DNA of 64,000 nt from Vicingaceae bacterium (GTDB lineage Bacteria > Bacteroidota > Bacteroidia > Flavobacteriales_E > Vicingaceae), in NCBI GenBank assembly GCA_018402765.1, contig JAGYIE010000005.1, positions 17,082-81,081 on the forward strand, read 5' to 3'. A program made the position numbers and the translations under genes. Of the stretch, positions 1-22,093 are shown piece after piece (the first letter of the stretch is position 1; every line of letters starts with the position of its first letter). The notes beneath the pieces were generated by a model. That model searched no databases and was not told the DNA's origin. It worked only from the letters and a program-made list of their open reading frames with translations.

Positions 1-1309
1 TAAAATAGGTACTAGTATCCTTTTTATTAATAGAATATAGTTCTCTAATGTGTGCGAGCTGGCTTAAGTGGCTAGCCATTAATTGTTCGAAAAGTAACAG
101 ATAAGCTTTTAATTGTTTTGCTTGTGCAAATCTTTTCTTTGTGCTATTATTTGGTAATTCTTTATCTCTTAATCCATATACAGCAGGAAACTCTTTTTGT
201 ATTGAAAAATATTCCCTTACTTCATTAAGCGAAAATCTACCGTCAGGTATTGATTTTAGATATTTCCTATGGTCTTCATAAGATTTTCTATCATTAATTG
301 TAATAGAATCTAAAAGCTGGTGAAAGATATCTGTATCTATCTCATATTTCATGTTATTTCTATATACAGATAGCTGATAAGAAGACACATTATCTTTTGT
401 AATTAATTTTTCGAGTATCGGGTAAGTATCTTTTTCAAACGTTACTATAGAATCAAAGCACTTAATACCATTTTTGTAAACTACTAAATCTTCAATCGAG
501 ATAACCCCAGGAACACCTTCTATTATACTCTTAATTTCTGAAATGTAGATTTCATTCGTTTTATTTTTTAGACGAATACTTTTTAGTGAATAATTAGTTA
601 AAATTGGGCCCGTGTATAGCTCGGTAAAGGCTATCTTAGAATTATCAAATGCTGCTGTTTCGTTATTATCATTGCTCAAGTAATTTTCTGTTTGCTGATA
701 TATTTCTGCTAAAATATCTTCTCCTACTGCAAACGAATCAATAAACAGCTTACCTGAAAAACTAATTTCCGCCTTTTTAAGTAATGAAATTCTTTCTATA
801 TCGGTGCTAAGAAATCTATTTTCAATAAATAGATTTTTTGCATCAGCTAAGGTCTCTTTCTCCTGAAACTCCAATACATCTTCCCTTAGTTGTATCTGTA
901 ACTCGTATAGGCCGCTTATACCCATTGGATGATCATCGATCTGGTTTAACCAGATATTTTTTATCGTAGGAAGCGCATCTAAAAATAACTTTCTGTAATC
1001 CGCTCTATTTACAGCTGACGTTGGAAATATTTTATCAGGTCCTAGAAGTAAATTATTCTTAGCTAAATCGAATTTATCTTTGTTGGAAAGCAAAATATCT
1101 GCTATAGGAAAATGAGTGCGATAACCTAAATCCGTGATAGCATAACAGAGCTGCTCCATAATAGTAATTCCCGGGTCATGATAGTTATAATCAGTCCATT
1201 GATTACCTGAGTATTGCTCTATATATAAAATTGCTTTTTCTCTAAGCGCTTCGTAATTTAGGCTAACAGCTTCAGCTTCTTCTTCTTTTATATATTTTGG
1301 TTCAATCAT
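1..1309 (-). CDS. eCIS baseplate protein, Afp12-like (partial, runs off left edge; absent from ORF track)
   Basis: ATG at 1309 gives MIEPKYIKEE...NYEALREKA...GNQWTDYNYHDPGITIMEQLCYAITDLGYR, the typical eCIS baseplate N-terminal motif; frame open to base 1 (...ELYSINKKDTSTYF). Confidence 0.85.
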   Translation of the reverse strand, partial: MIEPKYIKEEEAEAVSLNYEALREKAILYIEQYSGNQWTDYNYHDPGITIMEQLCYAITDLGYRTHFPIADILLSNKDKFDLAKNNLLLGPDKIFPTSAVNRADYRKLFLDALPTIKNIWLNQIDDHPMGISGLYELQIQLREDVLEFQEKETLADAKNLFIENRFLSTDIERISLLKKAEISFSGKLFIDSFAVGEDILAEIYQQTENYLSNDNNETAAFDNSKIAFTELYTGPILTNYSLKSIRLKNKTNEIYISEIKSIIEGVPGVISIEDLVVYKNGIKCFDSIVTFEKDTYPILEKLITKDNVSSYQLSVYRNNMKYEIDTDIFHQLLDSITINDRKSYEDHRKYLKSIPDGRFSLNEVREYFSIQKEFPAVYGLRDKELPNNSTKKRFAQAKQLKAYLLLFEQLMASHLSQLAHIRELYSINKKDTSTYF

Positions 1310-1314
1310 CTTTA

Positions 1315-2052
1315 TTAATCAAAAGATAAATCAATTAGGTTAAACTTTATTAAGTAAGCTTCACCTGTTTGCTCATCTATTCCATAGTGGCGTCTGGTTC
1401 TTATTTGAAGCGTATAATTATGCATATCACCCACCCATCTTAGCTGAATTTTATTTCTAAAACTTTCGTAATGTGCTTCTGAAATTTTAATTTTATTTTT
1501 TGAAAGCTTACCCCCAAAGGTAGATAATACTATAGCATGACAAACTGAATAGTACCCTTGGCCTATTTTGCCTTCGGCTTTTGCATTTAATTCAAAACTG
1601 CTTATTCCATCCAAATTACTAACTACATCGTGCCAATTTCCATCAGCAAATGCAACGCTTTTTACAAATGTTCCTAATTGCTTTTTTATAGCAATTGTTC
1701 CATTGACATCTAATTCAACGCTTGGGTTTATCTTGTTAATTCCAATATGTCCATTTTTTGATAATGTTATAATCGAATCACTTTCTGCGGAAGAGATAGT
1801 GAGCTTATCAGAATTATTCTTGTTAATATCAATTTGATAGTCTGGACTCTGTTGATTACTTTTTTTAAAAAACGACAGTATTCTGCTGCGTTTATTAGTG
1901 GCAGATAATTTTAAACCATCCTGTTCATCTACATTTATTGCATCGTCTACTGCATTAATTGAAGAGTCGATTAAATCTTCGAAATGCTTCTCTGTAGCAA
2001 AGCCACCTTTCTTAAAATAGTTTTTTAATGTTTGTCTATTTATTAAAGCCAT
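1315..2052 (-). CDS. eCIS tail fibre/adhesin-like protein (Afp13-like position)
   Basis: N-terminal NRQTLKNYFKKG..TEKHFEDLIDS motif; one fibre-type repeat GHIGINKINPSVELDVNG; sits between baseplate genes. Confidence 0.7.
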   Translation of the reverse strand: MALINRQTLKNYFKKGGFATEKHFEDLIDSSINAVDDAINVDEQDGLKLSATNKRSRILSFFKKSNQQSPDYQIDINKNNSDKLTISSAESDSIITLSKNGHIGINKINPSVELDVNGTIAIKKQLGTFVKSVAFADGNWHDVVSNLDGISSFELNAKAEGKIGQGYYSVCHAIVLSTFGGKLSKNKIKISEAHYESFRNKIQLRWVGDMHNYTLQIRTRRHYGIDEQTGEAYLIKFNLIDLSFD

Positions 2053-2057
2053 AGTGT

Positions 2058-5000
2058 CTATATTTTTAAACGAAAAGAAATTGCCTCATTATCTTCTTCC
2101 TCTTCATGCTTAACTGTGCTTGTAGGGTCCTGATTTTTATTAATTAAAAATGTGGTGTTAATACCTAATTCTTTAAAGTCTATTGCCTCCGGCGACTGGA
2201 ACTCATTTGTGGTTGTTATCGTTATTTTATGATTACCCTTGGGAACAATTAGCGACCACGGGGACCCCGTTCTAATTAGTTCGTTTTCAAAATTATTTTT
2301 GGCTGAATCATACGCCTCGAGCAAACCATCTGCATTTTTCTTTAAATGAATAATAGATATACCTGTAATAAAGTTAATGTAAGGCCTGGTTTTTACAAAA
2401 TTGATAATATCTAGTAGTTTGATCTGTTCTCCTAATGTGTAAGGGACCTCAGTATTTCGCAACCAAGGACATAGAAAATTAAATACATCTAAACTTAGCT
2501 GCTCAATCCCATTTCCATTAGAGATATCCTTAAAAGATACACTACATTTTAGCCATAAATCCTCGAATGTAGGATTTATCACGGTTACTTTAGCAAATGG
2601 TGAAGCTACTTGTGCAATAAATCCCTCTATTTCTTCCATTTCAGCAGAACTCAATCTGATTTCATCGATATTCTGAAAAGCATCTATCTTTTTAATGCAT
2701 AGCAATTTAACTCCATCCTTCTTATTGTCTGATGAGAAACATTTTGTGTGTGATAGCCAAGGAAAATTAGCTAATACGTACTTTTCAAAATCCCACTTGG
2801 TAATTGGTCTATTTTTATGTCTAATTAATTCACTAACACGATTGTAGAAGTCTATTTTTGTTTCTTTGTTTCTTCCCGGTATTGTCTGCAGAGGTTGGTT
2901 GATTGAGGTTATTCCTTTTACACTTTCTAATAATCCTTGTACAGATTTTGGTGGGAGAATTGTTATTCTGTTTTGCGATAGTTTACTAATTATCTCTTTT
3001 GCAGAAATGGCATTTATCCGTACCGATTTAATTAAACTAAACTGGTCTGACTTATTTTTTGAGCATGCCTTAATAAAGTGCTTTTTTGAATTAAATAAGT
3101 AATGTGTATCTGTCGAATCTGCAGGTATACGAACTGAAAAAATACCTGTTCGCATTAAGTTCTGTGTCTGATCATACATTATATGCTCTGGACTTAATAG
3201 TTTCCAGCCTTCAGATGAATAGTAAAACCATTCTAATTTTCTGCTAAATTCATAATTGGTGCTCTCGCTTTTTATAATCTCAAAGAGTAGATTTATAGAT
3301 TTGTTTGGTTTACATCCGTCAAAACCGATAACTAATTCTCCTTCGTATTTAAGATTATAAACAATCCTATCGTCAGTTACTAGCCTATTTTTGAAAGTGT
3401 CTTCTACACCATAAGGTGATAATAAGTGAAATGAATTTCTTTCATTAAAGTTATTTCTGTTAAAGTCACGCTGATTGAATATAATAGAAGTTTCTGCTGT
3501 ATAGCCAAGCATTAGTTCATGAATTTCAGGGGCGTAAGGCTCGTTTGGTAATTCTATTTCTGTGGTATCTCCCTTTTTCGATTTCTTTAGTGCATTTTTA
3601 GTAATGGCATCTGAATATACTTTTTGATAATTGCCAAATCCGAATCCTGTCTTTGGGGCTACTAACTCTACTTTGAAGAAACCTGTTTCTAAATCATTCG
3701 AATAATTTGAAATATCATCGGCAGAGAGATCATAATTTGGCTTTATATTTAACTGATTCGTGTCTAGATTTTTAACTTCAAAACTCGAAGTCAGTTCACC
3801 TTTCTCATCTTCATTAAAGAGATTCAATTTAATCGATTCGGGTTGTGCGTCACGGTATTCAAAATCTGTTAAAGCACTAATTTTTAGTTGAAAACTTGAA
3901 TTCTTAATCTCTTGAGGGTAATTCTTGTAATAATCTGAGAAACTGTTTTCTTCAACCGGTAAGTTATCATATTCCCAGGCTATATTTAACGATGATATCT
4001 GCTTGTTAAACAATTCTTCGCTCCCTATAAGGCTATATGAGCCAACTTTTGGTGTAGGGCCAAATAATAGAAAGCTACTGTTAGGGTCAACTAAATCACC
4101 ATTAGTAAATACACGTAATCTTTTTAATCCGTTAACTTTTGTGTGAATATCTACCGCGTCTAGCTTCATTCCATTTAGGAATGAATAAGCGTTATAAAAA
4201 TTATGCTGGTTTATGGTAAACTTGAGTACCGGATATTCTGCATGAATTTCATTTCCATGTAGTTTTGGTTCTATAGCCGAAAAGGCTTCAAATTGTTTAT
4301 TTAACTCAAATTGAATCGATATTACACCGGTCGTCCAATCCAATGGAGATAAGACATCAAAATCCCGAATAGGAACCCAACCTGTTGCTCCAGAGTAGAC
4401 TAGCTCAAAGGCATTGGAAAATATTTCGGAAAAAATTATCTCTTCATCTTCTTCTCTTCGTTCTGAAATATCTATTATTAAATCTGTCAGATAGCTAATT
4501 GAGTTCGCTTCAAATTTTAGATCTAACTTTACTTTTCGGTTACTTATTCCCATTTGAAAAATAGGGGAAGAGATTATAAAACCAACATCTGCAGCTGACA
4601 TATTCATTTCTTGATTTGTTCTCAATTTTTGCTCCTCGCCTAAACTAGAAAACAGCAAGCTACTTTTGTTAAACTCGTCCACATCCGCAATAGAGGACGC
4701 ATGAGTTTTGGTATAAATTCCTGAAATAAGATTAAATCGTGAATTATATTCAAATGTCTTTGTTCTACTCAAAAAAGTAGTAGATAAATGACTTATTTTA
4801 GAATTATTAAGTCGGTTGTTTTCCGTGGTTTCAAAAAGAATATCACTCCCATCTTTGTATTGTCCTGCTTTGATTTTGGTTCCTTTAGATAAATTTAATT
4901 CATCAATTGATTTTGAAATCTCAACTGTAGAAAATAGCAAGCTTGGACTGACATCTAATGGTGATTGCTGCAATAAGTCGCGGTAAAATAAGTCTAAGTG

Positions 5001-5774
5001 TTTTTCTGATATTGCGTTAATGTCTAGTTGTAAATGCTTAAATAGTTTGATGAAGGTAAAGATTAGCCCTGTGTGAGCTTTGTGATTTTCATTATTTTCA
5101 AGTGATTCGTTAAATAAATTTGCTGAATTTTTGACTAATCCTGAAATGGCCTGATATGTTTTATTAAACAATAAAATCAACCGTTTCATTGCATAATTTA
5201 CTGTTCCTTTCTCAATTGTAGTGACTGTTTTTGTTTTTACCTTCATTTTCCAACTAGTGGATAAATCTCCCAGAATTTTATCTAAATCTGCACCTGTGTT
5301 CTTTTTTTGGTAAAAGGCTTCAAACTGTTCTCGTAGTTCTATTAAATATGAAGATGCAGTAGAGTTTATAAAATAGTCTAATTCATATTCTATTGGAGAG
5401 CTTTTTAAAGAAAGGTTATTTTTTCTTGATTTTTCGTACCAGTTATTTAATAAACTAAAGAGTTCGATTAATAAATCAAATAAATTACTGTAGGCTATCC
5501 ACTTATCTTTCGCCGATGTGGTTTGATCAAACTCTCTTATAATTGAGAGTCTCGTATTTCCAAATTTAATAATAGGGTATGAATGTATTTCAGCTAATAG
5601 AAAGGTGGGATCATATTGCAGTAATTCATTCCAGCTTTCGTCAATTTTATTCTCAGTATTAAAAAAATGCAGTTTTTTTGACAATTCTTTAATAAACAGA
5701 ACTAATTCAGCAGGAGATCTATCATCTATCTTTAGATTTCTAGGATCAATACGGTATGTGTGACTTTTTTTCAA
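2058..5774 (-). CDS. eCIS baseplate J-like protein (Afp11-like)
   Basis: 1238 aa; N-terminal IDDRSPAELVLF, C-terminal FYNRVSELIRHKNRPITKWDFEKYVLANFP baseplate-J region; follows gp25. Confidence 0.88.
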   Translation of the reverse strand: MKKSHTYRIDPRNLKIDDRSPAELVLFIKELSKKLHFFNTENKIDESWNELLQYDPTFLLAEIHSYPIIKFGNTRLSIIREFDQTTSAKDKWIAYSNLFDLLIELFSLLNNWYEKSRKNNLSLKSSPIEYELDYFINSTASSYLIELREQFEAFYQKKNTGADLDKILGDLSTSWKMKVKTKTVTTIEKGTVNYAMKRLILLFNKTYQAISGLVKNSANLFNESLENNENHKAHTGLIFTFIKLFKHLQLDINAISEKHLDLFYRDLLQQSPLDVSPSLLFSTVEISKSIDELNLSKGTKIKAGQYKDGSDILFETTENNRLNNSKISHLSTTFLSRTKTFEYNSRFNLISGIYTKTHASSIADVDEFNKSSLLFSSLGEEQKLRTNQEMNMSAADVGFIISSPIFQMGISNRKVKLDLKFEANSISYLTDLIIDISERREEDEEIIFSEIFSNAFELVYSGATGWVPIRDFDVLSPLDWTTGVISIQFELNKQFEAFSAIEPKLHGNEIHAEYPVLKFTINQHNFYNAYSFLNGMKLDAVDIHTKVNGLKRLRVFTNGDLVDPNSSFLLFGPTPKVGSYSLIGSEELFNKQISSLNIAWEYDNLPVEENSFSDYYKNYPQEIKNSSFQLKISALTDFEYRDAQPESIKLNLFNEDEKGELTSSFEVKNLDTNQLNIKPNYDLSADDISNYSNDLETGFFKVELVAPKTGFGFGNYQKVYSDAITKNALKKSKKGDTTEIELPNEPYAPEIHELMLGYTAETSIIFNQRDFNRNNFNERNSFHLLSPYGVEDTFKNRLVTDDRIVYNLKYEGELVIGFDGCKPNKSINLLFEIIKSESTNYEFSRKLEWFYYSSEGWKLLSPEHIMYDQTQNLMRTGIFSVRIPADSTDTHYLFNSKKHFIKACSKNKSDQFSLIKSVRINAISAKEIISKLSQNRITILPPKSVQGLLESVKGITSINQPLQTIPGRNKETKIDFYNRVSELIRHKNRPITKWDFEKYVLANFPWLSHTKCFSSDNKKDGVKLLCIKKIDAFQNIDEIRLSSAEMEEIEGFIAQVASPFAKVTVINPTFEDLWLKCSVSFKDISNGNGIEQLSLDVFNFLCPWLRNTEVPYTLGEQIKLLDIINFVKTRPYINFITGISIIHLKKNADGLLEAYDSAKNNFENELIRTGSPWSLIVPKGNHKITITTTNEFQSPEAIDFKELGINTTFLINKNQDPTSTVKHEEEEDNEAISFRLKI

Positions 5775-5776
5775 AT

Positions 5777-6187
5777 TTAACGTATTTCAGTTCCTTCGTT
5801 GATATAAAAAGGAAACACAATATTGTCCCTTACATTATTGGAGTGTATTTCATAATCAATATGCACACTAATCACACCATCAAGAATATTAGATTTAACT
5901 GTACTAACATCATGCACTATAATACGAGGCTCAAATGCTCGTAATCCTTGTTTTATTTCAAAAGAAAGCCTGCCAAGCAAACCATTATTGGTTTTATCAA
6001 ACTGATAATCATGAATGATACATCCAAAATCAGATCGCATGATACGCTCTCCTATATGCGTTTGGAAAAATAAGGATAAACTTTGTCTAATATCCTCATC
6101 TTTACTTACCATAATTATTTCTGCATTCTCTTTATCAAAGGTTGGAGGGAAGCCCCACCCTTTGCCTAAAAATGATTTTTCATCCAT
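5777..6187 (-). CDS. GPW/gp25 family baseplate wedge protein (Afp9-like)
   Basis: FLGKGWGFPPTF...GERIMRSDFGC...FEPRI...NIVFPFY. Confidence 0.93.
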   Translation of the reverse strand: MDEKSFLGKGWGFPPTFDKENAEIIMVSKDEDIRQSLSLFFQTHIGERIMRSDFGCIIHDYQFDKTNNGLLGRLSFEIKQGLRAFEPRIIVHDVSTVKSNILDGVISVHIDYEIHSNNVRDNIVFPFYINEGTEIR

Positions 6188-8694: not shown

Positions 8695-8696
8695 AA

Positions 8697-8903
8697 TTAG
8701 TAGCTTAGTTTATCGTTTAATCTGGATAATACTTCGTTCACACATTCAGTAATAAGTGCTCTTTTTTCAGATTCACTTAAGCCTACTTTGGATTTATTTA
8801 CTTTGGAATTTGCTTCAATTAATTTAATAATATCTTCTTCACTTGCGCTACTATTACCATTTACTTTTCCTTTAATCACCAATTCTTTTATTACTACAGC
8901 CAT
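8697..8903 (-). CDS. DUF5908-like small eCIS protein (Afp6-like)
   Basis: MAVVIKELVIKGKV...LITECVNEVLSRL; size and position between tube 2 and LysM protein. Confidence 0.8.
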   Translation of the reverse strand: MAVVIKELVIKGKVNGNSSASEEDIIKLIEANSKVNKSKVGLSESEKRALITECVNEVLSRLNDKLSY

Positions 8904-8917
8904 AATCTAAAAGATGT

Positions 8918-12544: not shown

Positions 12545-12555
12545 AATTTTATCTA

Positions 12556-13092: not shown

Positions 13093-13103
13093 TGGTGATT
13101 ATT

Positions 13104-13337: not shown

Positions 13338-13347
13338 AAGTAGTTTT

Positions 13348-16402: not shown

Positions 16403-17512
16403 TTAATGTGTTGATTTAGCGTTTACTTCCTTTTGCATTCTTTCATATCTGGCATAAGCTTCTTTTTTAAGTGTCTGTTTGATTTCTGAAGTTTTACTTT
16501 CTAGTTCCATTTCCAAAGAAGCTTCTTTTAGCTTACTATTTTTGATTCGTTCATAATCGAAGTTATCTTTTGCTTTTTGCAAATTCATTTCATAAATTAA
16601 TTCGCTTTCTTCCAGTAGGCTTTCATAGGGACCTTTTGAAGAAAGTAATTTGGTAAGAATAGGAGCTATTTCAATCATTATAAAAATAGAAAGAATAAGT
16701 AAAGAGGCTAGTTTATCAATTTGATTAAGTGCTTTAATTCGATCAAAAAAACCTGACTTAAATTCTTGTGACATCGTTAGTAATTCGGCGTTCATAAGCG
16801 CCTCAGTATTAATTTGCTCATTGCTTAGTGCGTTAAGTAAGGAGTCTGTTTGCACTTTTTGTGTTTGAACCTCTGCTGCATACGTCTCGTATTTCTCTTG
16901 CCTGCTCTCACATTCCGACCCTCTGCCTTTCCTTCCTGTTCCGCAAGTTCCATCACATTCACACTTGAAGTCACTGTAATACGCATCTCGAATAACTATT
17001 TTATCTTCTAACTTTTTTATTAATAAATCTTTACGATTTGTTAGGTCATCAATTTTATAGGAGTATTTTATTTTTACATCGTCTACTAATGTTATTCGTT
17101 CCTTTTCTAAGTATGTATTAATTTCATTTTTGAATAGTTTTATTTCTATTGGTTTAGAAATTACTAATGCAATTAATACTGCAATTATCAATCGAGGAAT
17201 CGCCTTTAAAAATTCTCCCTTTTTACTATTGACTGACCGCAGAGTAGAAACAATATAACGATCTAAGTTAAAAATCATACCGGCCCAAATTAATGATGCT
17301 CCTATTACGATAATTAATGAATCAAATATTAGTGAAAAGGCGAAAAATGCTGATAGAGAGGATAATAGTGTAGTGAAAACGATGGTAAGACCGATACTAC
17401 TATATTTATTAAGCTCGTATTGCGGACATTTAAGAATCATTTTGACACTTACGCCCGAGCAGAATAATAAAAATCGAGTAATTTTAGATAAATTATTTAC
17501 TTCTTCAATCAT
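16403..17512 (-). CDS. DUF4407 family membrane protein
   Basis: FLLFCSG...KCPQYELNKYSSIG.TIVFT; LDRYIVS; PRLIIAVLIALVISKPIEIKLF; Cys cluster CECDGTCGTGRKG.GSEC. Confidence 0.8.
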   Translation of the reverse strand: MIEEVNNLSKITRFLLFCSGVSVKMILKCPQYELNKYSSIGLTIVFTTLLSSLSAFFAFSLIFDSLIIVIGASLIWAGMIFNLDRYIVSTLRSVNSKKGEFLKAIPRLIIAVLIALVISKPIEIKLFKNEINTYLEKERITLVDDVKIKYSYKIDDLTNRKDLLIKKLEDKIVIRDAYYSDFKCECDGTCGTGRKGRGSECESRQEKYETYAAEVQTQKVQTDSLLNALSNEQINTEALMNAELLTMSQEFKSGFFDRIKALNQIDKLASLLILSIFIMIEIAPILTKLLSSKGPYESLLEESELIYEMNLQKAKDNFDYERIKNSKLKEASLEMELESKTSEIKQTLKKEAYARYERMQKEVNAKSTH

Positions 17513-18569
17513 TCTTATAAATTGTATTGGTTACACTTCTATAAAAATTTTTAAAAAGAGTACGCACATTGTTAGCCCTTTCTGAAGCAGATTTTAGTTC
17601 TTCTTTTTTTCTAATTTCCGCTATGTTTTCGAAAGTGAAAAGAGTTATTGCATGAGCAGTTTTTGCAACTAGTGTAGTAAATTCAAAGGAAAATTCAGTG
17701 TCTTCGGTAGCTATAAAATCGTGCTTACCCCTCGATGGGAGTGTGCCTAATGTCTGTTCGACTAACTTTCCTGCAGATTCAGACTCCCATTTGATACGCA
17801 CTTGTTGGTTTAAGTAAACTCCAAATTTCAGGTTTTGCTCATTTACAGACGATAGCTCAATATAATCTTCTAAAATTGGATCATAAACTTCTACTAAAAA
17901 GAGAATGGTGTTTTCAGAAAATACTTTTATAAATAATGAGCGTCTGACCTCTGCGTTGCTGTTTTTAGCTATTATTAGATAATGCTGGCTTTTGTTAAGC
18001 GCAACAATTTTGCTGCCTGAAATATCCACTTCGCCTAACTCAGGAGAAATACTCACTGAATGGGCATTGGCAGCTTTCCAATTAATTTTCACTTTTTCGC
18101 CTCTGTTTATAAATGGTTTATCAACAGTGAAATCAAGATTTATTTCGCCTGAGAAGAGACTTATCTTTTCAGATTTCTTTAAAAGTCGATTAAACAAATC
18201 AACTTTAGAGCGTATTCGTGTCTCTTTTGATTCCGCCTTATTTTCTGTTTCAGCGCTAATTAAATATCCATTGTCTAGTACACAAAATGATTGCTCGACT
18301 TCATTATTGTTAGACTGATTGAGCCAATAAATAACCACACCACTATCAATTAATCGTTTGATAAGATTTGCTATTTTTATTGATTTTTTATCTGAATTTG
18401 AGCATATTATAATTTCTATTTGACAGTCTTTATTGGCTAGAGCTAACAATTTTGTCGCCAAAAAAAGCAAGTCGGTTTCTTCTGTACAAAGCTTTAAGGA
18501 ATATGCTACACGTCCTATTTCTTTCTCTATTTCGGTTGCTATATGTTGTGTATAATAGGTTCTTAACAT
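17505..18569 (-). CDS. Degenerate PLD-like domain plus two Ig-like repeats
   Basis: N-terminus resembles PLDc_2 with VEQSFCVLD where MHNKFCVID is expected; repeats GEKVKINWKAANAHSVSISPELGEVDISGS and NQQVRIKWESESAGKLVEQTLGTLPSRGK. Confidence 0.55.
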   Translation of the reverse strand: MLRTYYTQHIATEIEKEIGRVAYSLKLCTEETDLLFLATKLLALANKDCQIEIIICSNSDKKSIKIANLIKRLIDSGVVIYWLNQSNNNEVEQSFCVLDNGYLISAETENKAESKETRIRSKVDLFNRLLKKSEKISLFSGEINLDFTVDKPFINRGEKVKINWKAANAHSVSISPELGEVDISGSKIVALNKSQHYLIIAKNSNAEVRRSLFIKVFSENTILFLVEVYDPILEDYIELSSVNEQNLKFGVYLNQQVRIKWESESAGKLVEQTLGTLPSRGKHDFIATEDTEFSFEFTTLVAKTAHAITLFTFENIAEIRKKEELKSASERANNVRTLFKNFYRSVTNTIYKND

Positions 18570-18593
18570 AAAGGTTTTGAATAGTAGTTGTTT

Positions 18594-18749
18594 ATGTTAC
18601 TAAAATAGTATGAATTCAGCCTCAAGCCTACAGGACTTTCAAAATGTTATAAACATCAATTGTTTATAAAGCTGTTTCGCTTTATTTACAAAATAGTTCA
18701 ATTTTAGTTATTCCATTTTAAATACGCCTCTAGTAATGTTGAAAACATC
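18594..18749. promoter_or_regulatory. Three copies of a palindromic ATGTT-N3-AACAT motif in the divergent intergenic region
   Basis: 18594 ATGTTactAAAAT, 18644 ATGTTataAACAT, 18736 ATGTTgaaAACAT. Confidence 0.45.
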
Positions 18750-18785
18750 TTGTAACCACATATAAAATTGCACACTATAATTTTA

Positions 18786-18793
18786 TAAATTTG
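18786..18793 (+). promoter_or_regulatory. Bacteroidota -7 promoter element for the nSTAND-PAAR unit
   Basis: TAAATTTG matches TAnnTTTG, 37 nt before the TTG start; no clear -33. Confidence 0.5.
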
Positions 18794-18830
18794 AGGATTA
18801 ACATCCTGTGCTTTTAAAGCTGTCATTAAT

Positions 18831-21695
18831 TTGTATAAATTGAGTAATAACCATAAATCAAATATTCCTTTTGTTGGGCTTCAGCCTTTTAGTTTAGAAG
18901 ACCATCAGTATTTTTATGGGCGAGAGAGAGAAGTAGAATCGATACTCTCTATTCTACAATCCAATAAATTTGTATGCATAACAGGTCCTGAGGGCTCAGG
19001 TAAAAGTTCATTAATTAATGCTGGTTTATTGCACCGTTTGCAAACAGGCTTTAATGGTATAGAAGGCAATAAGTGGTCCGTTTGTAAATTTAGACCTAGT
19101 ATTTCTCCACTTGAAAATTTTACACAGGCACTAACATTTGATGGGGTATTATCAGTTGAAAATAAGCCTAATACCACAGATTACTTAACCTATTTTGAAA
19201 TTATAAAAGAGGTCGGTGCTGATGCTTTGATGACGATATATAATGATTCCGAAATAGTTAAGAAGCACAATTTATTGGTAGTTATTGATCAGATAGAAGA
19301 TATTTTTTACATGAATGATTACTTTAGTTCTTTTAGTTCTAAAGATGATGATATTCTATTTGATATCGTAAACAAAACTGCTCGGATAAAGAACATCCCC
19401 ATTTACTTCATACTATCTATTCGCACTAACTATTTAAGTAGTCTTTCTCAGTACAATGGATTACAGGAACTTATAAGCAGGTCGCAATACGCTATTCAAA
19501 ACATAAGTTTAGTAAGTGTCAACCAAATGATTGTTGAGGGTTTTAATTCAGTGAATGTCCAGTTTAGTAATTTGTTAGTAGAATCTCTTTATGAAGAGCT
19601 TCTAGAAGATACCTCTCTATTGTCAAACCTTCAGTTTCTTTTGTATTCTTTGTATATGCATCACTTAGCCTTAAAAAGCAGTCAGCAGGTTATAATCCAT
19701 GATTTTGATAATTATACATCCTTAAAAGAGGTGGTGAGTTTTTCATTTTTTGATTTCTTTGAATCTTTAGAAGATTCCGAGAAAGAGAAGTTAGAGTTGC
19801 TAATTCGAGCATTTTTCAACTCTAAAAATCAATTAAATACCAATTATAGAATATCGATTAATGATTTAGTAAAAATATCTGGTTTAGATATTATTTACAT
19901 AAAACAAATTTATTCTACTTTACGATTAGATTTTCAATCATTATTTAATGCTATCCCTGCTATTTCTACTCAGATTGATACTAATGGTAATGATTTTAAA
20001 TGGAAAGGTTCAGATTTGTTACAAATTAGCTATGTTTCTTATTTTTCTCACCCAACCTTTCAAAATTGGGTGCGGAATGAAGCTACTTACTATTGGCGTT
20101 TTAAGGAATATGCCAATTCGTTAAAAAAATATAAAAATGGAGAAATTGGTTTACTCACTTCGCCTCAGTTAGATATTGCAGTAGAGTGGAAGAACAACAA
20201 GTATATTTCTTCTGGTTGGTCTTCGAAATATAATTTACCCTTTTCTGATGTGGTTGACTTTATACTTGAAAGTAAGGCTAAACAGGAGAAAGACGCAGCT
20301 CATGCAGCTGCAAGGCAAGCAAGAGAGCGCATCAAAGAAAAAATTCAACGGCGACTTTATATTAGCTTTACCATTATAGCTTTCTCTCTAATGCTTTTTG
20401 CTGGCTATAAATGGATCGATGCCGACAGATCTAAAGAAGAGGCCAATATGGATAAATTAATTGCACAAGATCTCATGAGAGAGAATCAGATTATTAGTCA
20501 ATTAATAAAGATTAAAGCACAAGCTCCTTCTATGTTAGTGCAATTAAAAAATACTGGCAACGATACAAGTCAATTAAAAATCAATAGGCAAATACAAGAA
20601 GTAGTTAGAACGGAGTTATTGTTTGATAGTCTAAATTCTGTTTATAAAACTTCTTATGTTACAGATGATTGGATGCACGACTTGAATCAAACTGCACTGT
20701 CTCTTCTAGAAGGCAAAAAAGATTACACAGAAACGTCTATGCTTATAGGTGATCTAAAAACGTATCCTATTTTGGATTTTAGTTTATTTAATAATCAGCT
20801 AATCGCATTTATTGGAGAAGATAATAAATTGTTTATAAAAGATTTAAAAAGGAATAAACAAGCACAACTAATTAATCACTCTACTTTATTTAAAGGCCAA
20901 ATAAAACGATTAATTTTTATGGATATAGAGCATGTTTTAATCCTAACAGATCGTCATGAACTATTGATTTTATCGCTTATCACGCAGAATATACAAAGTG
21001 TTTATACCACTACGAAGGCTTCTCCTATAATTGATCTTATATACAATAAAGTAGAAGATGTTATTGTTATTGTAGAAGAAGATAAAATTAAGCTTTATGA
21101 TAGTTACAGTAATCTGCAAGTTATTGATGAATTAGGAGAACATTATACCGCTAGTTATCTTAATCAAAAATTATATGTTGCTACTAATAAGGGAATTTTC
21201 CAAGTAAATACTCAAGAAGGCATTAAGAAGGTGAATTTTGAAAAAGAGAAAAATTACAATTTTGATGGATTAACTAAACTACACTTAAAAGGAGATTATG
21301 CTTTTATTGGGTTTGATAACGGACGAGTAGAAATGTATAAGTTTAACCACGAGCAACTGGTATTAAAACATATATTCTTTTTTAATGAGCACTTTGACGC
21401 TATTACGAGTATATATTATGACGAAGTAAAAGAAGTGATGTATTCTTCAGGGATCGATAATAAAATTTTTAGATATGATTTAAGGATTAATGATGAAGAC
21501 GTAGATGAGAATTTTTCAGAGCTTAAGGGCCATAAAGGTACCGTTTGGAAAATTGATGGTTTTCAAAATACCAGAGGTCAACGAATTTTGGTTACTGCAG
21601 ATCAAACAGGCCACTTATTAACATGGTATATTGACGACATAGATATGGTAAAAGATCTTAAGGAATTAGTAGATAAACAACTTGAAAATAAATAG
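18831..21695 (+). CDS. nSTAND1-type NTPase + TM helix + WD40-like beta-propeller (Hat/HatR-like architecture)
   Basis: PFVGLQPF, FYGRERE, Walker A GPEGSGKSS, Walker B LLVVIDQIEDIF, LLTSPQLDIAVEW; TM LYISFTIIAFSLMLFAGY; WD-like EHFDAITSIYY and KGHKGTVWKID. Confidence 0.85.
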   Translation: MYKLSNNHKSNIPFVGLQPFSLEDHQYFYGREREVESILSILQSNKFVCITGPEGSGKSSLINAGLLHRLQTGFNGIEGNKWSVCKFRPSISPLENFTQALTFDGVLSVENKPNTTDYLTYFEIIKEVGADALMTIYNDSEIVKKHNLLVVIDQIEDIFYMNDYFSSFSSKDDDILFDIVNKTARIKNIPIYFILSIRTNYLSSLSQYNGLQELISRSQYAIQNISLVSVNQMIVEGFNSVNVQFSNLLVESLYEELLEDTSLLSNLQFLLYSLYMHHLALKSSQQVIIHDFDNYTSLKEVVSFSFFDFFESLEDSEKEKLELLIRAFFNSKNQLNTNYRISINDLVKISGLDIIYIKQIYSTLRLDFQSLFNAIPAISTQIDTNGNDFKWKGSDLLQISYVSYFSHPTFQNWVRNEATYYWRFKEYANSLKKYKNGEIGLLTSPQLDIAVEWKNNKYISSGWSSKYNLPFSDVVDFILESKAKQEKDAAHAAARQARERIKEKIQRRLYISFTIIAFSLMLFAGYKWIDADRSKEEANMDKLIAQDLMRENQIISQLIKIKAQAPSMLVQLKNTGNDTSQLKINRQIQEVVRTELLFDSLNSVYKTSYVTDDWMHDLNQTALSLLEGKKDYTETSMLIGDLKTYPILDFSLFNNQLIAFIGEDNKLFIKDLKRNKQAQLINHSTLFKGQIKRLIFMDIEHVLILTDRHELLILSLITQNIQSVYTTTKASPIIDLIYNKVEDVIVIVEEDKIKLYDSYSNLQVIDELGEHYTASYLNQKLYVATNKGIFQVNTQEGIKKVNFEKEKNYNFDGLTKLHLKGDYAFIGFDNGRVEMYKFNHEQLVLKHIFFFNEHFDAITSIYYDEVKEVMYSSGIDNKIFRYDLRINDEDVDENFSELKGHKGTVWKIDGFQNTRGQRILVTADQTGHLLTWYIDDIDMVKDLKELVDKQLENK

Positions 21696-21700
21696 CAGTT

Positions 21701-22093
21701 ATGGCAAATTGTGTTTGTAATGGAGCAAAGATATCCTGCAACTTTGGAGATGGTCCTCAAAGTATGGTGGTGCTTCCACTTGGGATGACGACTACTGCTA
21801 ATATAAAGGCATTAGCTGTTAATACAGATATTATCCCCTTTTTAAATATACCTAGTTTTGGTCAATGTAAATCACTAGCTAATCCAATGGTAGCATCTGC
21901 TACCGCCGCTGCACTAGGAGCGCTTACTCCTCAACCTTGTATTCCAGTTGTGATAGCTCCATGGAATCCTGCTGCACAAAAATTAAAAATTGGAAAAATA
22001 CCTGCAATTTTAGACAACAGCCAAACAATGTGTGCTTGGGCAGGTCAGATAAAGATAGATGATCCCGGACAATCTTCTATCACTGCAGTTTAA
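21701..22093 (+). CDS. DUF4280 PAAR-like spike-tip protein
   Basis: VCNGAKISCNFG...NIPSFGQCKSLANP.VASATAAALG.LTPQPCIP...CAWAGQIKI.DPGQ. Confidence 0.92.
   Translation: MANCVCNGAKISCNFGDGPQSMVVLPLGMTTTANIKALAVNTDIIPFLNIPSFGQCKSLANPMVASATAAALGALTPQPCIPVVIAPWNPAAQKLKIGKIPAILDNSQTMCAWAGQIKIDDPGQSSITAV

What the first reader, a model, noticed from the sequence alone, without database searches (positions are those of the whole stretch)
1..22093. Intact-looking Afp/PVC-type eCIS extended by an envelope module and a STAND sensor
Seen: cap, sheath, two tubes, DUF5908, LysM hub, VgrG, gp25, two baseplate genes and a fibre are all open and tightly spaced, with no capsid, terminase, integrase or Tss membrane genes. 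Established: this gene set defines eCIS (Afp, PVC, MAC, AlgoCIS). Inference: the flanking 13104-22093 genes belong to the same system, because one set runs into the cap genes without a break and the other carries the spike tip. Together they suggest a sensor-gated, possibly envelope-tethered injection machine.
Basis: partly seen in the sequence, partly recalled or inferred. Interest (0 to 1): 0.85.

Follow-up and report, generated by a model that had tools for sequence, protein, structure and literature searches.

The report
Envelope-linked injection system with STAND sensor
A marine flavobacterium carries a complete phage-tail-like injection machine of the membrane-associated (SalCIS / type VI subtype iv) kind. 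Five cell-envelope genes and a membrane-spanning STAND "sensor" gene travel with it across many Bacteroidota, which gives testable candidates for how such machines are anchored and controlled.

Summary
Window 1-22093 encodes cap, cap adaptor, sheath, tube, tube initiators, DUF5908 plug, VgrG, gp25, Cis11 and Cis12. The ORF cut by the window start is Cis12, not a fibre. The operon continues about 9.6 kb to the left and ends with a tape measure and an AAA ATPase.

It is a clade Ib system, not an Afp/PVC-type one. The closest solved sheath is Salmonella SalCIS.

The five upstream genes keep the same order and strand in front of the cap gene across several Bacteroidota lineages. Aureispira and Saprospira, which have cell-anchored T6SSiv machines, keep part of the set. 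The Algoriphagus loci sampled lack it; the characterised Algoriphagus machine is released. Of 76 informative metagenome loci encoding an nSTAND relative, 74 lie next to CIS genes.

The GH18 protein has the published SalCis20 architecture (April 2026), so envelope association is already a published idea. DUF4407, the exported jelly-roll protein, the PLD/Ig protein, the two-TM protein and the STAND-TM-WD40 protein were not mentioned in the CIS papers I searched and read.

DUF4280 is the only PAAR-like gene in the genome, and this clade has lost the canonical PAAR.

Gating and anchoring remain inferences. I rate it a new variant of a known kind, interest about 0.6.

The parts
2..1309 (-). Cis12 (gp6/gp7-like baseplate wedge). 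These are the N-terminal 436 aa of a 909-aa protein whose 3' part lies left of the window.
   Evidence: PDB sequence search: Alg12 7aeb_A E 5e-60, tCIS All3315 1e-58, SalCis12 1e-36.
1315..2052 (-). Conserved 245-aa ORF between Cis11 and Cis12. It may be a baseplate accessory, short fibre or adaptor; it is unassigned.
   Evidence: Homologues (26-60% identity) sit at the same position in most related loci. No Pfam, NCBIfam or PDB match; only weak PHROG hits of unknown function.
2058..5774 (-). Cis11 (gp6/baseplate-J-like, 1238 aa, long form as in the cage-forming clade Ib proteins).
   Evidence: PDB: SalCIS 9rce_A E 9e-78, Alg11 7aeb_G 1e-62, tCIS All3317 1e-52, Pvc11 and Afp11 weaker.
5777..6187 (-). 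Cis9, gp25-like sheath initiator.
   Evidence: PF04965 E 5e-20.
6188..7999 (-). Cis8, VgrG-like spike. It is the only VgrG in the genome.
   Evidence: PF04717 E 5e-19; single tblastn hit in G000.
7999..8694 (-). Cis7, tube-initiator hub with a LysM domain.
   Evidence: PF19266 CIS_tube E 7e-23 plus LysM.
8697..8903 (-). Cis6, DUF5908 (assigned as the plug by its position in the Cis/Alg numbering; equivalence to Alg6 not checked by sequence).
   Evidence: PF19265 E 4e-10. The plug role of Alg6 is from PMC8894135.
8918..9445 (-). Cis5, second tube-fold protein (tube initiator).
   Evidence: PF06841 E 7e-25.
9561..10031 (-). Cis1, inner tube.
   Evidence: PF06841 E 2e-43; 98% identical to the Psychroflexus salis copy.
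10066..11568 (-). Cis2, the single sheath protein.
   Evidence: PF17482 and PF04984. Thousands of homologues; the 120 best listed are 71-94% identical, and those with source names are marine Flavobacteriaceae. Best PDB hit is the SalCIS sheath 9r9h, E 1e-141.
11711..12544 (-). Cis16b, cap adaptor.
   Evidence: PDB: SalCis16b 9r9n_C E 2e-4. Position after Cis16a is conserved in nearly all sampled loci with enough upstream sequence.
12556..13092 (-). Cis16a, cap.
   Evidence: PF14065 Pvc16_N E 1e-27.
13104..13337 (-). 77-aa protein with two hydrophobic segments ('TM77'), always directly upstream of the cap gene.
   Evidence: Hydropathy. Present in 40 of 62 species-level loci with at least 4 kb upstream.
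13348..15120 (-). Cis20-like envelope hydrolase. It has an N-terminal signal/lipobox, a periplasmic GH18 domain of the spore-cortex-lytic (YdhD/YaaH/SleL) type, and three C-terminal TM helices. The catalytic Glu is E235, in the motif NGIDLNFE.
   Evidence: PF00704 E 2e-30. Profile against the PDB: YdhD 5e-43, YaaH 5e-31, SleL 1e-26. TM segments at 488-579. 2-5 C-terminal TMs in 86 of 86 orthologues. The D-G-x-[DE]-x-N-F-E motif is conserved. The architecture equals SalCis20 (PMC13266070).
15113..16402 (-). Exported 429-aa protein. It is a lipoprotein here (LFGC lipobox). It has a helical N-terminal region followed by two jelly-roll beta-sandwich domains.
   Evidence: Hydropathy and lipobox. 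AF2 model pLDDT 85. Foldseek gave only low-TM jelly-roll matches. Orthologues occur in Aureispira and Saprospira loci.
16403..17512 (-). DUF4407 inner-membrane protein. It has four to five hydrophobic segments flanking a long helical region with an invariant CEC-x-G-x-C...C motif.
   Evidence: PF14362 E 4e-64; alignment A5; hydropathy.
17505..18569 (-). First gene of the operon.
   Evidence: Weak PF13091 hit. AF2 pLDDT 85. Ig-tandem Foldseek matches. No TM segment or signal peptide.
18570..18830 (.). 261-bp divergent intergenic region between the operon and the nSTAND gene (presumed control region).
   Evidence: ORF coordinates. The divergent arrangement is conserved in 45 metagenome loci.
18831..21695 (+). 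nSTAND1 NTPase, one TM helix (511-529), coiled coil and WD40-like propeller. Predicted topology is N-in, C-out.
   Evidence: PF20703 E 2e-43 plus weak WD40/beta-propeller family hits (all below Pfam's curated cut-offs). Alignment A2. A single TM in 66 of 67 orthologues; net charge +4.9 before and +0.5 after the TM.
21701..22093 (+). DUF4280 PAAR-like protein, 5 nt after the nSTAND stop. It is the candidate spike tip.
   Evidence: PF14107 E 4e-29. It is the only PAAR-like gene in G000. Orthologues of 93% and 70% identity have the same arrangement.

Best explanation
This is a complete contractile injection system of clade Ib, the group that holds AlgoCIS, MAC, T6SSiv and SalCIS, in a Psychroflexus-like marine flavobacterium. 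I think it most likely works as a cell-envelope-associated machine, like SalCIS or T6SS subtype iv, and not as a freely released Afp/PVC-type particle.

Shown: one roughly 28-kb operon of 19 genes starts with five envelope genes and continues, without a break, into the particle genes.
- The envelope genes are a cytoplasmic PLD/Ig protein, a polytopic DUF4407 membrane protein, an exported jelly-roll lipoprotein, a Cis20-like GH18 hydrolase with three TM helices, and a two-TM mini-protein.
- The particle genes are Cis16a/b, 2, 1, 5, 6, 7, 8, 9, 11, a 245-aa ORF, 12, 14 and 15.
- This co-linearity is conserved in several Bacteroidota lineages.

Inferred: the GH18 protein opens or binds peptidoglycan. 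Together with the two-TM protein, DUF4407 and the exported protein it forms the inner-membrane, periplasm and outer-membrane contact for the baseplate.

Shown: a divergent gene encodes a STAND NTPase with a cytoplasmic NTPase module, one TM helix and a periplasmic coiled coil plus WD40 propeller. Relatives of this gene are almost exclusively CIS-linked.

Inferred: the STAND protein senses an envelope or periplasmic cue and, by NTP-dependent oligomerisation at the membrane, licenses assembly or firing.

Inferred: DUF4280, translated just after it, supplies the spike tip that this clade no longer encodes between vgrG and gp25. The convergent 1850-aa protein, with an acidic, Ser/Thr-rich, low-complexity N-terminus that I take to be disordered, is the best cargo candidate.
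For: Core parts:
- Pfam and PDB matches identify every structural part.
- The best solved sheath is SalCIS (E 1e-141), ahead of AlgoCIS (1e-98) and Afp/PVC.

Envelope module:
- Same order and strand in front of the cap in all nine Flavobacteriaceae genome loci, in L018/L020, MED-G17, Fulvivirga, and Flammeovirgaceae/Cyclobacteriaceae.
- Counts in species-level loci: TM77 40/62, GH18 38/62, exported protein 24/54, DUF4407 18/54, PLD-like 18/54.
- On the sheath tree the module maps to one large clade.
- Aureispira and Saprospira keep the exported protein, two GH18 copies and TM77. Their T6SSiv is IM-anchored and has a trans-envelope complex whose components are not named in the 2024 preprint.
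- The Algoriphagus and Spirosoma loci lack all five genes. The AlgoCIS of A. machipongonensis was characterised as extracellular (PMC8894135).
- Topology is conserved: GH18 has C-terminal TMs in 86/86 orthologues.
- The GH18 profile is closest to the PG-lytic YdhD/YaaH/SleL group, as reported for SalCis20, which is membrane-embedded and proposed to remodel the wall and anchor the machine.
- Other envelope genes join distant loci: a LysM protein in Aureispira and an OMP beta-barrel after nSTAND in L054.

STAND:
- 45 + 29 of 76 informative metagenome loci are CIS-adjacent, in two different configurations.
- 23 of 25 nSTAND clusters (60% identity) are CIS-linked.
- A single TM is present in 66/67 orthologues, with positive-inside charge.
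- No PADLOC defence family matches beyond two marginal P-loop hits for nSTAND.

DUF4280:
- The genome has one VgrG, one DUF4280 and no PAAR.
- Canonical PAAR is present in most related loci with enough downstream sequence but absent in this clade.
- The nSTAND-DUF4280 adjacency recurs at 93%, 70% and 49-58% identity.

Cargo candidate:
- The only homologue of the 1850-aa protein lies at the same position against the ATPase gene.
Against:
- Direct sequence homology to SalCis20 could not be shown, because SalCis20 was not retrievable from the PDB copy.
- No Cis13-type anchor was identified. The cluster proteins scanned gave no DUF4157 hit and the 1850-aa ORF has no HExxH motif, so no SalCgo2-like effector was found.
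- A small two-TM protein, a muralytic enzyme, a membrane coiled-coil protein and a lipoprotein also resemble a holin, endolysin and spanin release cassette.
- The usual about-300-aa partner of nSTAND (49 of 56 loci) is absent from this genome. The sensor may therefore be incomplete here.
- In some relatives an HTH_17 gene follows that partner, which hints at transcriptional control and not firing control.
- DUF4280 is absent from many config-A loci that also lack PAAR.
- DUF4407 family members occur without CIS genes elsewhere.
- AF2 and Foldseek gave no specific functional match for the exported protein or the PLD/Ig protein.
Confidence: 0.55

Rival explanations
1. Released eCIS with its own lysis and release cassette. 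TM77 would act as a holin and the GH18 protein as a membrane-tethered endolysin. DUF4407 (inner membrane plus coiled coil) and the lipoprotein would act like a spanin pair. Particles would assemble in the cytoplasm and be freed by programmed lysis, as in tailocins.
For: - The parts match by size and topology: a 77-aa two-TM protein, a PG-hydrolase-type GH18 with its catalytic Glu conserved, a coiled-coil membrane protein and a lipoprotein.
- eCIS and tailocins are generally released by lysis (general knowledge).
- An earlier first-reader note records a DUF4407-like gene next to a holin-family gene in another genome (unchecked).
Against: - The distribution runs the wrong way. The cell-anchored Aureispira/Saprospira T6SSiv keeps the exported protein, GH18 x2 and TM77. 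The Algoriphagus loci sampled lack all five genes, and AlgoCIS is released.
- SalCis20, which has the same architecture, was found membrane-embedded as a dimer, and no release of SalCIS was detected.
- The genes are the first in the structural operon, so they would be made together with the particle.
- The 'spanin-like' lipoprotein is 429 aa with two jelly-roll domains, and outside the Flavobacteriaceae it has an ordinary signal peptide instead of a lipobox.
Confidence: 0.2
2. The STAND protein controls transcription, not firing. On sensing a periplasmic cue, it and its roughly 300-aa partner (plus an HTH_17 protein in some genomes) would switch on the divergent CIS operon. DUF4280 would simply be co-regulated.
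For: - The gene pair is divergent and shares a 261-bp intergenic region.
- HTH_17 genes follow the partner gene in several loci.
- Classical bacterial STAND proteins such as MalT and AfsR are transcription activators (general knowledge).
Against: - The window's nSTAND has no DNA-binding domain. The genome has no homologue of the HTH_17 protein or of the partner.
- In 29 loci the nSTAND pair sits antisense inside the operon, between the two tube genes, and not at its promoter.
- The NTPase module is membrane-tethered.
Confidence: 0.25
3. An intracellular death or abortive-infection device, like the Streptomyces cytoplasmic CIS. The NLR-like STAND would detect stress or phage and trigger the CIS to fire into the producer's own envelope.
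For: - STAND/NLR proteins commonly trigger cell death (general knowledge).
- The Streptomyces CIS needs a membrane protein (CisA) to fire and mediates cell death (PMC12237407, title and abstract).
- nSTAND evolves fast: about 30-44% identity to P. salis, against 87% for the sheath.
Against: - The nearest functionally tested relative, Aureispira, kills prey cells by contact.
- The sensor domain faces the periplasm, not the cytoplasm where phage components appear.
- No defence-system profile matches apart from two marginal P-loop hits.
- The Streptomyces sheath is a much weaker match than the clade Ib sheaths.
Confidence: 0.08
4. The accessory genes are chance neighbours of an ordinary CIS and have no shared function with it.
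For: - The GH18, DUF4407, WD40-STAND and DUF4280 families all have members outside CIS loci.
Against: - Gene order is collinear and conserved down to about 51% sheath identity.
- Start and stop codons overlap or abut in the window.
- 74 of 76 informative nSTAND loci are CIS-adjacent, in two independent arrangements.
Confidence: 0.02

Closest known systems
SalCIS of Salmonella enterica subsp. salamae (PMC13266070, Nat Commun 2026; PDB 9r9h, 9r9n, 9rce)
   Same: - It has the closest solved sheath (E 1e-141), Cis11 (9e-78) and Cis16b.
- It shares the split cap, the long Cis11, the tape measure and the AAA ATPase.
- It has an operon-encoded membrane protein with a signal sequence, a SleL-like periplasmic hydrolase domain and three C-terminal TM helices (SalCis20). 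The authors propose that this protein remodels peptidoglycan and anchors the machine.
   Different: - In SalCIS the hydrolase gene lies at the end of the structural operon; here it is immediately upstream of the cap.
- The SalCIS paper's main text has no match for 'lipoprotein' or for Cis17-19, and the sections read name no DUF4407, PLD/Ig, two-TM or STAND gene.
- SalCIS has an in-operon PAAR-like Cis10, a Cis13 adaptor and HEXXH effectors. None of these was found here.
- Direct sequence comparison with SalCis20 could not be made.
T6SS subtype iv of Aureispira sp. CCB-QB1 (ixotrophy; bioRxiv 10.1101/2024.01.29.577165) and Saprospira 'rhapidosomes'
   Same: - Same large sheath clade, at 52-56% identity.
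- Loci from the same genera keep the exported-protein homologue, GH18-TM proteins (two copies) and the two-TM protein directly upstream of cap, cap adaptor and sheath.
- The machine is IM-anchored, with a six-fold trans-envelope complex spanning inner and outer membranes.
   Different: - No DUF4407, PLD/Ig or nSTAND homologue lies within 10 kb upstream of the sheath gene. A LysM protein sits there instead.
- Canonical PAAR is present.
- The machine has extracellular antennae.
- The preprint does not assign genes to the trans-envelope complex, so equivalence of the parts is an inference.
AlgoCIS of Algoriphagus machipongonensis (PMC8894135; PDB 7aeb)
   Same: - Clade Ib.
- It has the Cis16A/16B split cap, a Cis6 plug, Cis11 with a spike cage, Cis12 and the same gene order. 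The window's Cis11 and Cis12 match Alg11 and Alg12 at E 1e-62 and 5e-60.
   Different: - AlgoCIS is an extracellular particle with Alg19 fibres, DUF4157 cargo and an in-operon PAAR-like Alg10.
- The Algoriphagus loci sampled have none of the five envelope genes and no nSTAND.
- Its sheath is 692 aa with an extra domain.
   Same: They share the core parts list: sheath, tube, VgrG, gp25, gp6-like baseplate, tape measure, AAA ATPase and a Pvc16_N cap domain.
   Different: - One sheath gene here, against Afp2/3/4.
- The cap is split in two.
- No Afp13-type fibre.
- No PAAR in the operon.
- Cis11 is twice as long.
- Matches to the Afp and Pvc proteins are far weaker.
Threonine-phosphorylation (TagQRST-PpkA) sensing pathway of the Pseudomonas aeruginosa H1-T6SS (from general knowledge, not tested)
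   Same: The concept is the same: envelope-located sensors encoded with the machine convert a periplasmic or membrane perturbation into assembly or firing of a contractile weapon.
   Different: The proteins are unrelated. Here there is a single STAND NTPase with a TM helix and a WD40 propeller, and no kinase, phosphatase or FHA module.

Membership tests
Contractile injection system, eCIS/T6SSiv superfamily, clade Ib | Phage-type sheath, tube, gp27/gp5-like spike, gp25, and gp6- and gp6/7-like wedge proteins. | tested here: met
   Pfam hits. PDB hits for Cis11 and Cis12.
Contractile injection system, eCIS/T6SSiv superfamily, clade Ib | CIS tape measure and Afp15-type AAA ATPase in the same operon. 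| tested here: met
   PF19268 E 8e-75 and PF00004 E 4e-25, just left of the window on the same strand.
Contractile injection system, eCIS/T6SSiv superfamily, clade Ib | Split cap (Cis16a plus cap adaptor Cis16b), DUF5908 (Cis6 slot) and a long Cis11. | tested here: met
   Pvc16_N protein of 178 aa followed by a 277-aa protein that matches SalCis16b. DUF5908. Cis11 is 1238 aa and aligns over about 960 residues to Alg11. The cage itself was not modelled.
Contractile injection system, eCIS/T6SSiv superfamily, clade Ib | The sheath groups with clade Ib members. | tested here: met
   Best PDB hits are SalCIS, then AlgoCIS, then tCIS, ahead of PVC and Afp. The tree groups it with loci from Algoriphagus, Aureispira and Saprospira.
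SalCIS-like membrane-associated CIS subtype (PMC13266070) | Cis20: signal sequence, periplasmic SleL-like hydrolase and three C-terminal TM helices. | tested here: inconclusive
   Architecture and hydrolase subfamily match. Direct homology to SalCis20 could not be shown, because its sequence was not retrieved.
SalCIS-like membrane-associated CIS subtype (PMC13266070) | Cis13 trimeric adaptor or fibre-like protein. | not tested
   No Cis13 sequence was available. The 245-aa ORF at 1315-2052 is the only candidate, and it has no profile match.
SalCIS-like membrane-associated CIS subtype (PMC13266070) | SalCgo2-type HEXXH/DUF4157 effector in the cluster. | tested here: not met
   No DUF4157 hit among the cluster proteins scanned. 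No HExxH motif in the 1850-aa ORF. The rest of the genome was not scanned with that profile.
SalCIS-like membrane-associated CIS subtype (PMC13266070) | Particles associated with the inner membrane and not released. | not testable with these tools
   Needs cryo-ET and secretion assays.
Afp/PVC-type eCIS (clade Ia) | Several sheath paralogues, a single fused Afp16 cap, an Afp13 fibre and an in-operon PAAR (Afp10). | tested here: not met
   One sheath gene, a split cap, no fibre profile hit, and no PAAR between vgrG and gp25.
Canonical T6SS (subtypes i-iii) | TssB/C sheath, TssJLM or equivalent membrane complex, and ClpV. | tested here: not met
   The sheath is the phage/eCIS type. No Tss family was hit in any cluster protein.
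STAND NTPase, nSTAND1 (PF20703) | P-loop NTPase module scoring above the family's gathering cut-off. | tested here: met
   149.9 bits against a cut-off of 27.1. Walker A (GxxGxGK[ST]) and Walker B-like (hhhhDQxED) motifs are conserved in alignment A2.
STAND NTPase, nSTAND1 (PF20703) | C-terminal repeat sensor domain. | tested here: met
   WD40/beta-propeller hits at 780-948, all below Pfam's curated cut-offs. Unusually, a TM helix and a coiled coil separate this domain from the NTPase.
STAND NTPase, nSTAND1 (PF20703) | Fused or adjacent effector domain. | tested here: not met
   The protein starts at the NTPase. The usual neighbour, a roughly 300-aa protein with no known family, is absent here.
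PAAR-like spike tip (DUF4280, PF14107) | Profile match, and pairing with a VgrG. | tested here: inconclusive
   The profile match is met: 101.8 bits against a cut-off of 26.3. It is the only PAAR-like gene and there is only one VgrG in the genome. Physical pairing was not testable.
Phage or tailocin lysis cassette (holin, endolysin, spanins) | Small holin, muralytic enzyme, and an i-spanin/o-spanin pair acting in release. | tested here: inconclusive
   The topologies are compatible. No holin, endolysin or spanin profile hit was found. The phyletic pattern argues against a release role.

The most novel reading that the evidence does not exclude
Two readings together.

1. The STAND-TM-WD40 protein is a periplasm-facing, NLR-like receptor. 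It detects prey contact or envelope attack and, by oligomerising at the inner membrane, directly nucleates or triggers a contractile injection machine. This would be, to my knowledge, the first STAND-gated contractile weapon.

2. The exported jelly-roll protein, the Cis20-like GH18 protein, the two-TM protein and, where present, DUF4407 are the still-unidentified components of the trans-envelope complex of T6SS subtype iv. They would be shared between abundant marine Flavobacteriaceae and the ixotrophic predators Aureispira and Saprospira.
Probability: 0.25. Interest if true: 0.85.

Novelty: new variant of a known kind. Interest (0 to 1): 0.6.

Why it matters
Clade Ib injection systems are common in Bacteroidota. 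This sheath type has thousands of relatives; the 120 best listed are 71-94% identical, and those that carry names are marine Flavobacteriaceae such as Polaribacter and Psychroflexus. These bacteria matter for carbon turnover during algal blooms.

Two questions are open in the field:
- What anchors T6SSiv/SalCIS-type machines to the envelope? The Aureispira preprint (2024) names no genes for its trans-envelope complex, and SalCIS anchoring is marked unresolved.
- What tells such machines when to assemble or fire?

The conserved five-gene module gives a short list of concrete candidates for the first question. The CIS-restricted STAND-TM-WD40 family, with its roughly 300-aa partner, gives one for the second. 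All can be tested by deletion and tomography in cultured strains.

If the STAND link is functional, it would connect NLR-type sensing with a contractile nanomachine. It could also offer a handle for controlling engineered injection systems.

Tried and rejected
Searches that gave nothing useful:
- NCBIfam returned nothing for eight unassigned proteins.
- PHROGs gave only weak hits of unknown function.
- PADLOC gave no defence family for nSTAND, PLD/Ig, DUF4407, the exported protein, DUF4280, the 300-aa partner or the 1850-aa ORF, apart from two marginal P-loop hits for nSTAND.
- Foldseek on good AF2 models gave only generic folds: jelly-roll for the exported protein and Ig tandems for the PLD/Ig protein.
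- PDB profile searches for the 300-aa partner and the 1850-aa ORF found nothing.
- Three attempts to reach SalCis20 by sequence failed: single sequence, full profile, and a profile of the TM region alone.
- The sigma-70 promoter scan is uninformative for Bacteroidota, with fewer hits than in shuffles.

Ideas rejected:
- The MBL-fold gene at 22096-23232 is not part of the system. It has no homologue in any related locus.
- The ORF cut by the window start is not a fibre. It is Cis12.
- A prophage origin is unlikely. No head, terminase or integrase family was hit in the cluster, and housekeeping genes flank it.
- DUF4407 is not CIS-specific as a family. Relatives of 27-31% identity lie in other contexts. 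Earlier first-reader notes report the same.

Literature: full-text searches found no paper linking DUF4407 or STAND NTPases with CIS.

- The genome search.
- The fetch from genomes, for a second region.
- The look-up of sequencing runs.

Because of this there was no whole-genome relatives survey, no extension of loci beyond 10-kb flanks, and no expression data.

Full report
**Where the window lies.** The window is C12:17082-81081 of a 3.1-Mb, 16-contig, 35% G+C assembly. The closest named relative by sheath is Psychroflexus salis, at 87% identity. Thousands of sheath homologues come from marine metagenomes and Flavobacteriaceae MAGs; the 120 best listed are 71-94% identical.

**Observation.** Reading the minus strand from 18569 downwards, the genes are:
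- a PLD-like protein (354 aa);
- DUF4407 (369 aa);
- an unassigned 429-aa protein;
- GH18 (590 aa);
- a 77-aa membrane protein;
- the Pvc16_N cap (178 aa);
- a 277-aa protein;
- the sheath (500 aa);
- tube (156 aa) and a second tube-fold protein (175 aa);
- DUF5908 (68 aa);
- CIS_tube+LysM (231 aa);
- VgrG (603 aa) and gp25 (136 aa);
- a 1238-aa protein and a 245-aa protein;
- an ORF cut by the window start.

Sequence searches against solved structures assign the 277-aa protein to the cap adaptor Cis16b. They assign the 1238-aa protein to Cis11. The truncated ORF, once completed from the contig to 909 aa, is Cis12. It is therefore not a fibre. No fibre was confirmed; the 245-aa ORF is conserved at its position but matches no family.

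The operon continues left of the window with a 2279-aa CIS tape measure and a 448-aa AAA ATPase. That makes 19 same-strand genes over about 28 kb, with gaps from an 8-nt overlap to 142 nt. The scan found no terminator-like site between the first gene and the sheath. A convergent 1850-aa ORF overlaps the ATPase stop by 4 nt. On the plus strand, nSTAND1-WD40 (954 aa) is followed 5 nt later by DUF4280. Beyond 22093 the genes are unrelated housekeeping.

**What kind of CIS it is.** The best solved sheath is that of SalCIS from Salmonella enterica subsp. salamae (E 1e-141). AlgoCIS (1e-98) and the cyanobacterial tCIS follow, and PVC and Afp are far behind. The single sheath gene, the split cap, the DUF5908 gene in the Cis6 (plug) slot and the long Cis11 all fit clade Ib as described for AlgoCIS and SalCIS. 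The label 'Afp/PVC-type' is therefore inexact. 'Extracellular' cannot be inferred from the gene set, because T6SSiv, tCIS and SalCIS share it.

**Do the upstream genes belong? Forward test.** A scan of one genome per species with a sheath alignment returned 80 loci with 10-kb flanks. I compared them by tblastn and then by iterated profiles.
- The order PLD-like, DUF4407, 429-aa protein, GH18, 77-aa protein, cap, cap adaptor, sheath is kept on one strand in all nine Flavobacteriaceae loci.
- The same order is kept in a Saprospiraceae-labelled lineage (L018/L020) and in Fulvivirga and the Flammeovirgaceae/Cyclobacteriaceae/Marinoscillum group. MED-G17 (L024/25) and Parachryseolinea keep it without the 429-aa protein.
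- Aureispira and Saprospira keep the 429-aa homologue, two GH18 copies and the small membrane protein.
- Bacteroidales, Reichenbachiella and some Cytophagaceae keep GH18 alone.
- Some Chitinophagales keep only the small membrane protein.
- The Algoriphagus/Spirosoma and Chitinophaga groups have none. The Chitinophaga minus-strand GH18 hits lack the catalytic Glu and are not orthologues.

Counts among loci with enough upstream sequence:

| Gene | Present / informative loci |
|---|---|
| 77-aa protein | 40/62 |
| GH18 | 38/62 |
| 429-aa protein | 24/54 |
| DUF4407 | 18/54 |
| PLD-like | 18/54 |
| all five | 15/54 |

On a sheath tree the module maps to one large clade, with patchy loss (FastTree, so deep branches are indicative only).

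**Reverse test for the STAND gene.** A metagenome scan with an alignment of eight nSTAND orthologues returned 80 loci. Of these, 45 have the window's arrangement, divergent from the PLD-like gene. Another 29 have the nSTAND gene inserted antisense between the two tube genes of the CIS operon, an arrangement first seen in L008/L009. Four are too short to judge. Only the two most distant loci (23% identity) have no CIS gene within 10 kb. Clustered at 60% identity, 23 of 25 nSTAND lineages are CIS-linked. More distant nSTAND relatives also sit upstream of the cap in Reichenbachiella, a Bacteroidales MAG and two other MAGs. Linkage in two independent configurations is hard to explain without shared function. 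No PADLOC defence profile matches beyond two marginal P-loop hits for nSTAND.

**Anatomy of the accessory proteins.** Hydropathy analysis gives the following.
- The PLD-like protein has no signal or TM segment.
- DUF4407 has four to five hydrophobic segments around a long helical region. That region carries an invariant Cys-rich motif.
- The 429-aa protein has a lipobox here and an ordinary signal peptide in Aureispira, Saprospira and Cytophagales, so it is exported everywhere.
- GH18 has an N-terminal signal/lipobox and, in 86 of 86 orthologues, 2-5 (mostly 3) C-terminal TM helices.
- The 77-aa protein has two to three hydrophobic segments.
- nSTAND has one TM helix in 66 of 67 full-length orthologues. 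Net charge is +4.9 before it and +0.5 after it. This predicts a cytoplasmic NTPase and a periplasmic coiled coil plus propeller.

AF2 models (pLDDT 85) show a helical N-terminal region plus two jelly-roll sandwiches for the exported protein. For the first gene they show a PLD-like alpha/beta domain, two Ig domains and a terminal helix. Foldseek gave only generic matches.

The GH18 subfamily keeps the catalytic Glu in the motif D-G-[IV]-[DE]-[IL]-N-F-E, with Asn in place of the usual Asp. Its profile is closest to the spore-cortex peptidoglycan hydrolases YdhD, YaaH and SleL.

**Comparison with the literature.**
- The SalCIS paper (April 2026) describes SalCis20. It has a Sec signal, a periplasmic SleL-like hydrolase domain and three C-terminal TM helices, and it forms a membrane-embedded dimer. 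The authors propose that it remodels the wall and, with Cis13, tethers the baseplate to the inner membrane. [quoted passage not shown]
- The window's GH18 protein has exactly this architecture and sits in the nearest CIS clade. I treat it as Cis20-like. I could not retrieve the SalCis20 sequence to prove homology.
- The Aureispira study shows an IM-anchored T6SSiv that kills prey by contact. It has a six-fold trans-envelope complex with inner-membrane, periplasmic and outer-membrane parts, but does not assign genes to it.
- Loci from the same genera share the exported protein, GH18 x2 and the two-TM protein with the window. The Algoriphagus loci sampled share none, and AlgoCIS is the released form. 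This pattern is the main reason I prefer an anchoring or trans-envelope role over a lysis or release role.
- Full-text searches found no paper linking DUF4407 or STAND NTPases with CIS. The main text of the SalCIS paper had no match for 'lipoprotein' or for Cis17-19; I did not search it for STAND.

**The spike tip.** A canonical PAAR gene (PF05488) lies between vgrG and gp25 in most related loci with enough downstream sequence. It is missing in the window and its Flavobacteriaceae sister loci (L002-L007, L022), where vgrG abuts gp25. The genome holds one VgrG, one DUF4280 and no PAAR. DUF4280 orthologues of 93% and 70% identity sit directly after nSTAND beside the same module. Copies of 49-58% identity sit one gene further on in 13 metagenome loci, often followed by about-710-aa and about-244-aa genes. 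A 65% orthologue lies 5 kb from an nSTAND1-WD40 gene with no CIS gene within 10 kb. So DUF4280 is plausibly the tip, and it is linked to nSTAND. However, only 15 of 56 nSTAND loci carry it, and some PAAR-less loci show no tip gene nearby.

**What is atypical here.** In 49 of 56 loci, nSTAND is followed by a gene of about 300 aa with no known family. This gene is absent from the window and from the whole assembly. In some loci an HTH_17 gene follows that partner, which keeps a transcriptional role open. nSTAND evolves fast: against P. salis it is 44% identical in the NTPase part and 30% in the propeller, while the sheath is 87% identical.

**Cargo.** The 1850-aa ORF has an acidic, Ser/Thr-rich, low-complexity first 100 residues, which I take to be disordered (no predictor was run), and no family or PDB match. 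Its single homologue (68% identity) lies in the same convergent position against the ATPase gene of a close relative. I regard it as the best cargo candidate, by position and by its N-terminus only.

**Verdict.** The inference that the flanking genes belong to the system is well supported. The mechanistic reading, envelope-tethered and sensor-controlled, is plausible and partly anticipated by the 2026 SalCIS work, but it is untested. The conserved extended envelope module and the CIS-restricted transmembrane STAND family appear to be new, judged by the library searches above.

No complete-genome survey or expression check could therefore be made.

Noticed in passing
L008:12056-16239, L009:8256-12446 and 29 metagenome loci (e.g. 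L120, L124, L129): In another Flavobacteriaceae lineage (Ca. Arcticimaribacter and relatives) the nSTAND gene and its roughly 300-aa partner are inserted antisense between the two tube genes, inside the CIS operon.
   Followed up: partly
L088:13137-14030, L115:13088-14062 and 47 further loci; absent from the window and G000: A gene of about 300 aa with no Pfam, PADLOC or PDB match follows nSTAND in 49 of 56 loci. This genome lacks it altogether, so the local sensor module may be reduced.
   Followed up: partly
L115:14077-14403, L105:4866-5186: In some loci an HTH_17 (excisionase/MerR-like) gene of about 108 aa follows the nSTAND partner. This suggests a transcriptional output in those genomes.
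   Followed up: no
L088:14033-17511 (and L092, L103, L108, L113, L137, L156): DUF4280 is often followed by a protein of about 710 aa with no family, then a 244-aa protein with an AAR2_1st-like domain. This may be a tip-linked effector with an adaptor or immunity protein. The window has neither.
   Followed up: no
L173:10456-11850: In the closest relative (DUF4280 93% identical) an IS66-family transposase lies directly after DUF4280, where the window has an MBL-fold gene. This border of the locus looks like a rearrangement point.
   Followed up: no
C12:1907-7459 (left of the window; L001:1907-7459): A convergent 1850-aa ORF overlaps the ATPase stop by 4 nt. Its N-terminus is acidic, Ser/Thr-rich and low-complexity. 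Only one homologue (68% identity) exists among 5.8 billion proteins, and it lies at the same position.
   Followed up: partly
L028:3266-7421, L044:3354-7463 and other Aureispira/Saprospira loci: The GH18-TM gene is duplicated in tandem in the ixotrophic Saprospiraceae. One copy has the motif DGIDINFE and the other DGIEINFE. In Aureispira (L028) a LysM protein lies just upstream of the exported-protein gene; the Saprospira upstream ORF was not scanned.
   Followed up: partly
L054:4682-5758: In one Bacteroidetes MAG the nSTAND gene is followed by an outer-membrane beta-barrel protein (PF13568), just upstream of GH18, cap and sheath.
   Followed up: no
L010, L015 (Algoriphagus and Spirosoma MAGs): In this subclade the cap and cap-adaptor genes have moved from upstream of the sheath to downstream of the tube gene. 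None of the envelope genes is present.
   Followed up: no
L053 (Luminiphilus), L072 (Limnohabitans): Contigs binned to Proteobacteria carry Bacteroidota-type CIS genes with 47-54% sheath identity. Mis-binning seems the likeliest cause; horizontal transfer is the alternative.
   Followed up: no
window 1315-2052: The N-terminus of the 245-aa ORF (…LKNYFKKGGFATEKHFEDLIDS…) resembles, from memory only, the conserved N-terminal attachment motif of many phage tail-fibre proteins.
   Followed up: no
PMC13266070, section on SalCis20: The paper calls SleL an N-acetylmuramoyl-L-alanine amidase. The matching fold here is GH18, a glycosidase family, and to my knowledge SleL is an N-acetylglucosaminidase. 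The expected activity of Cis20-like proteins is therefore glycan-strand cleavage.
   Followed up: no
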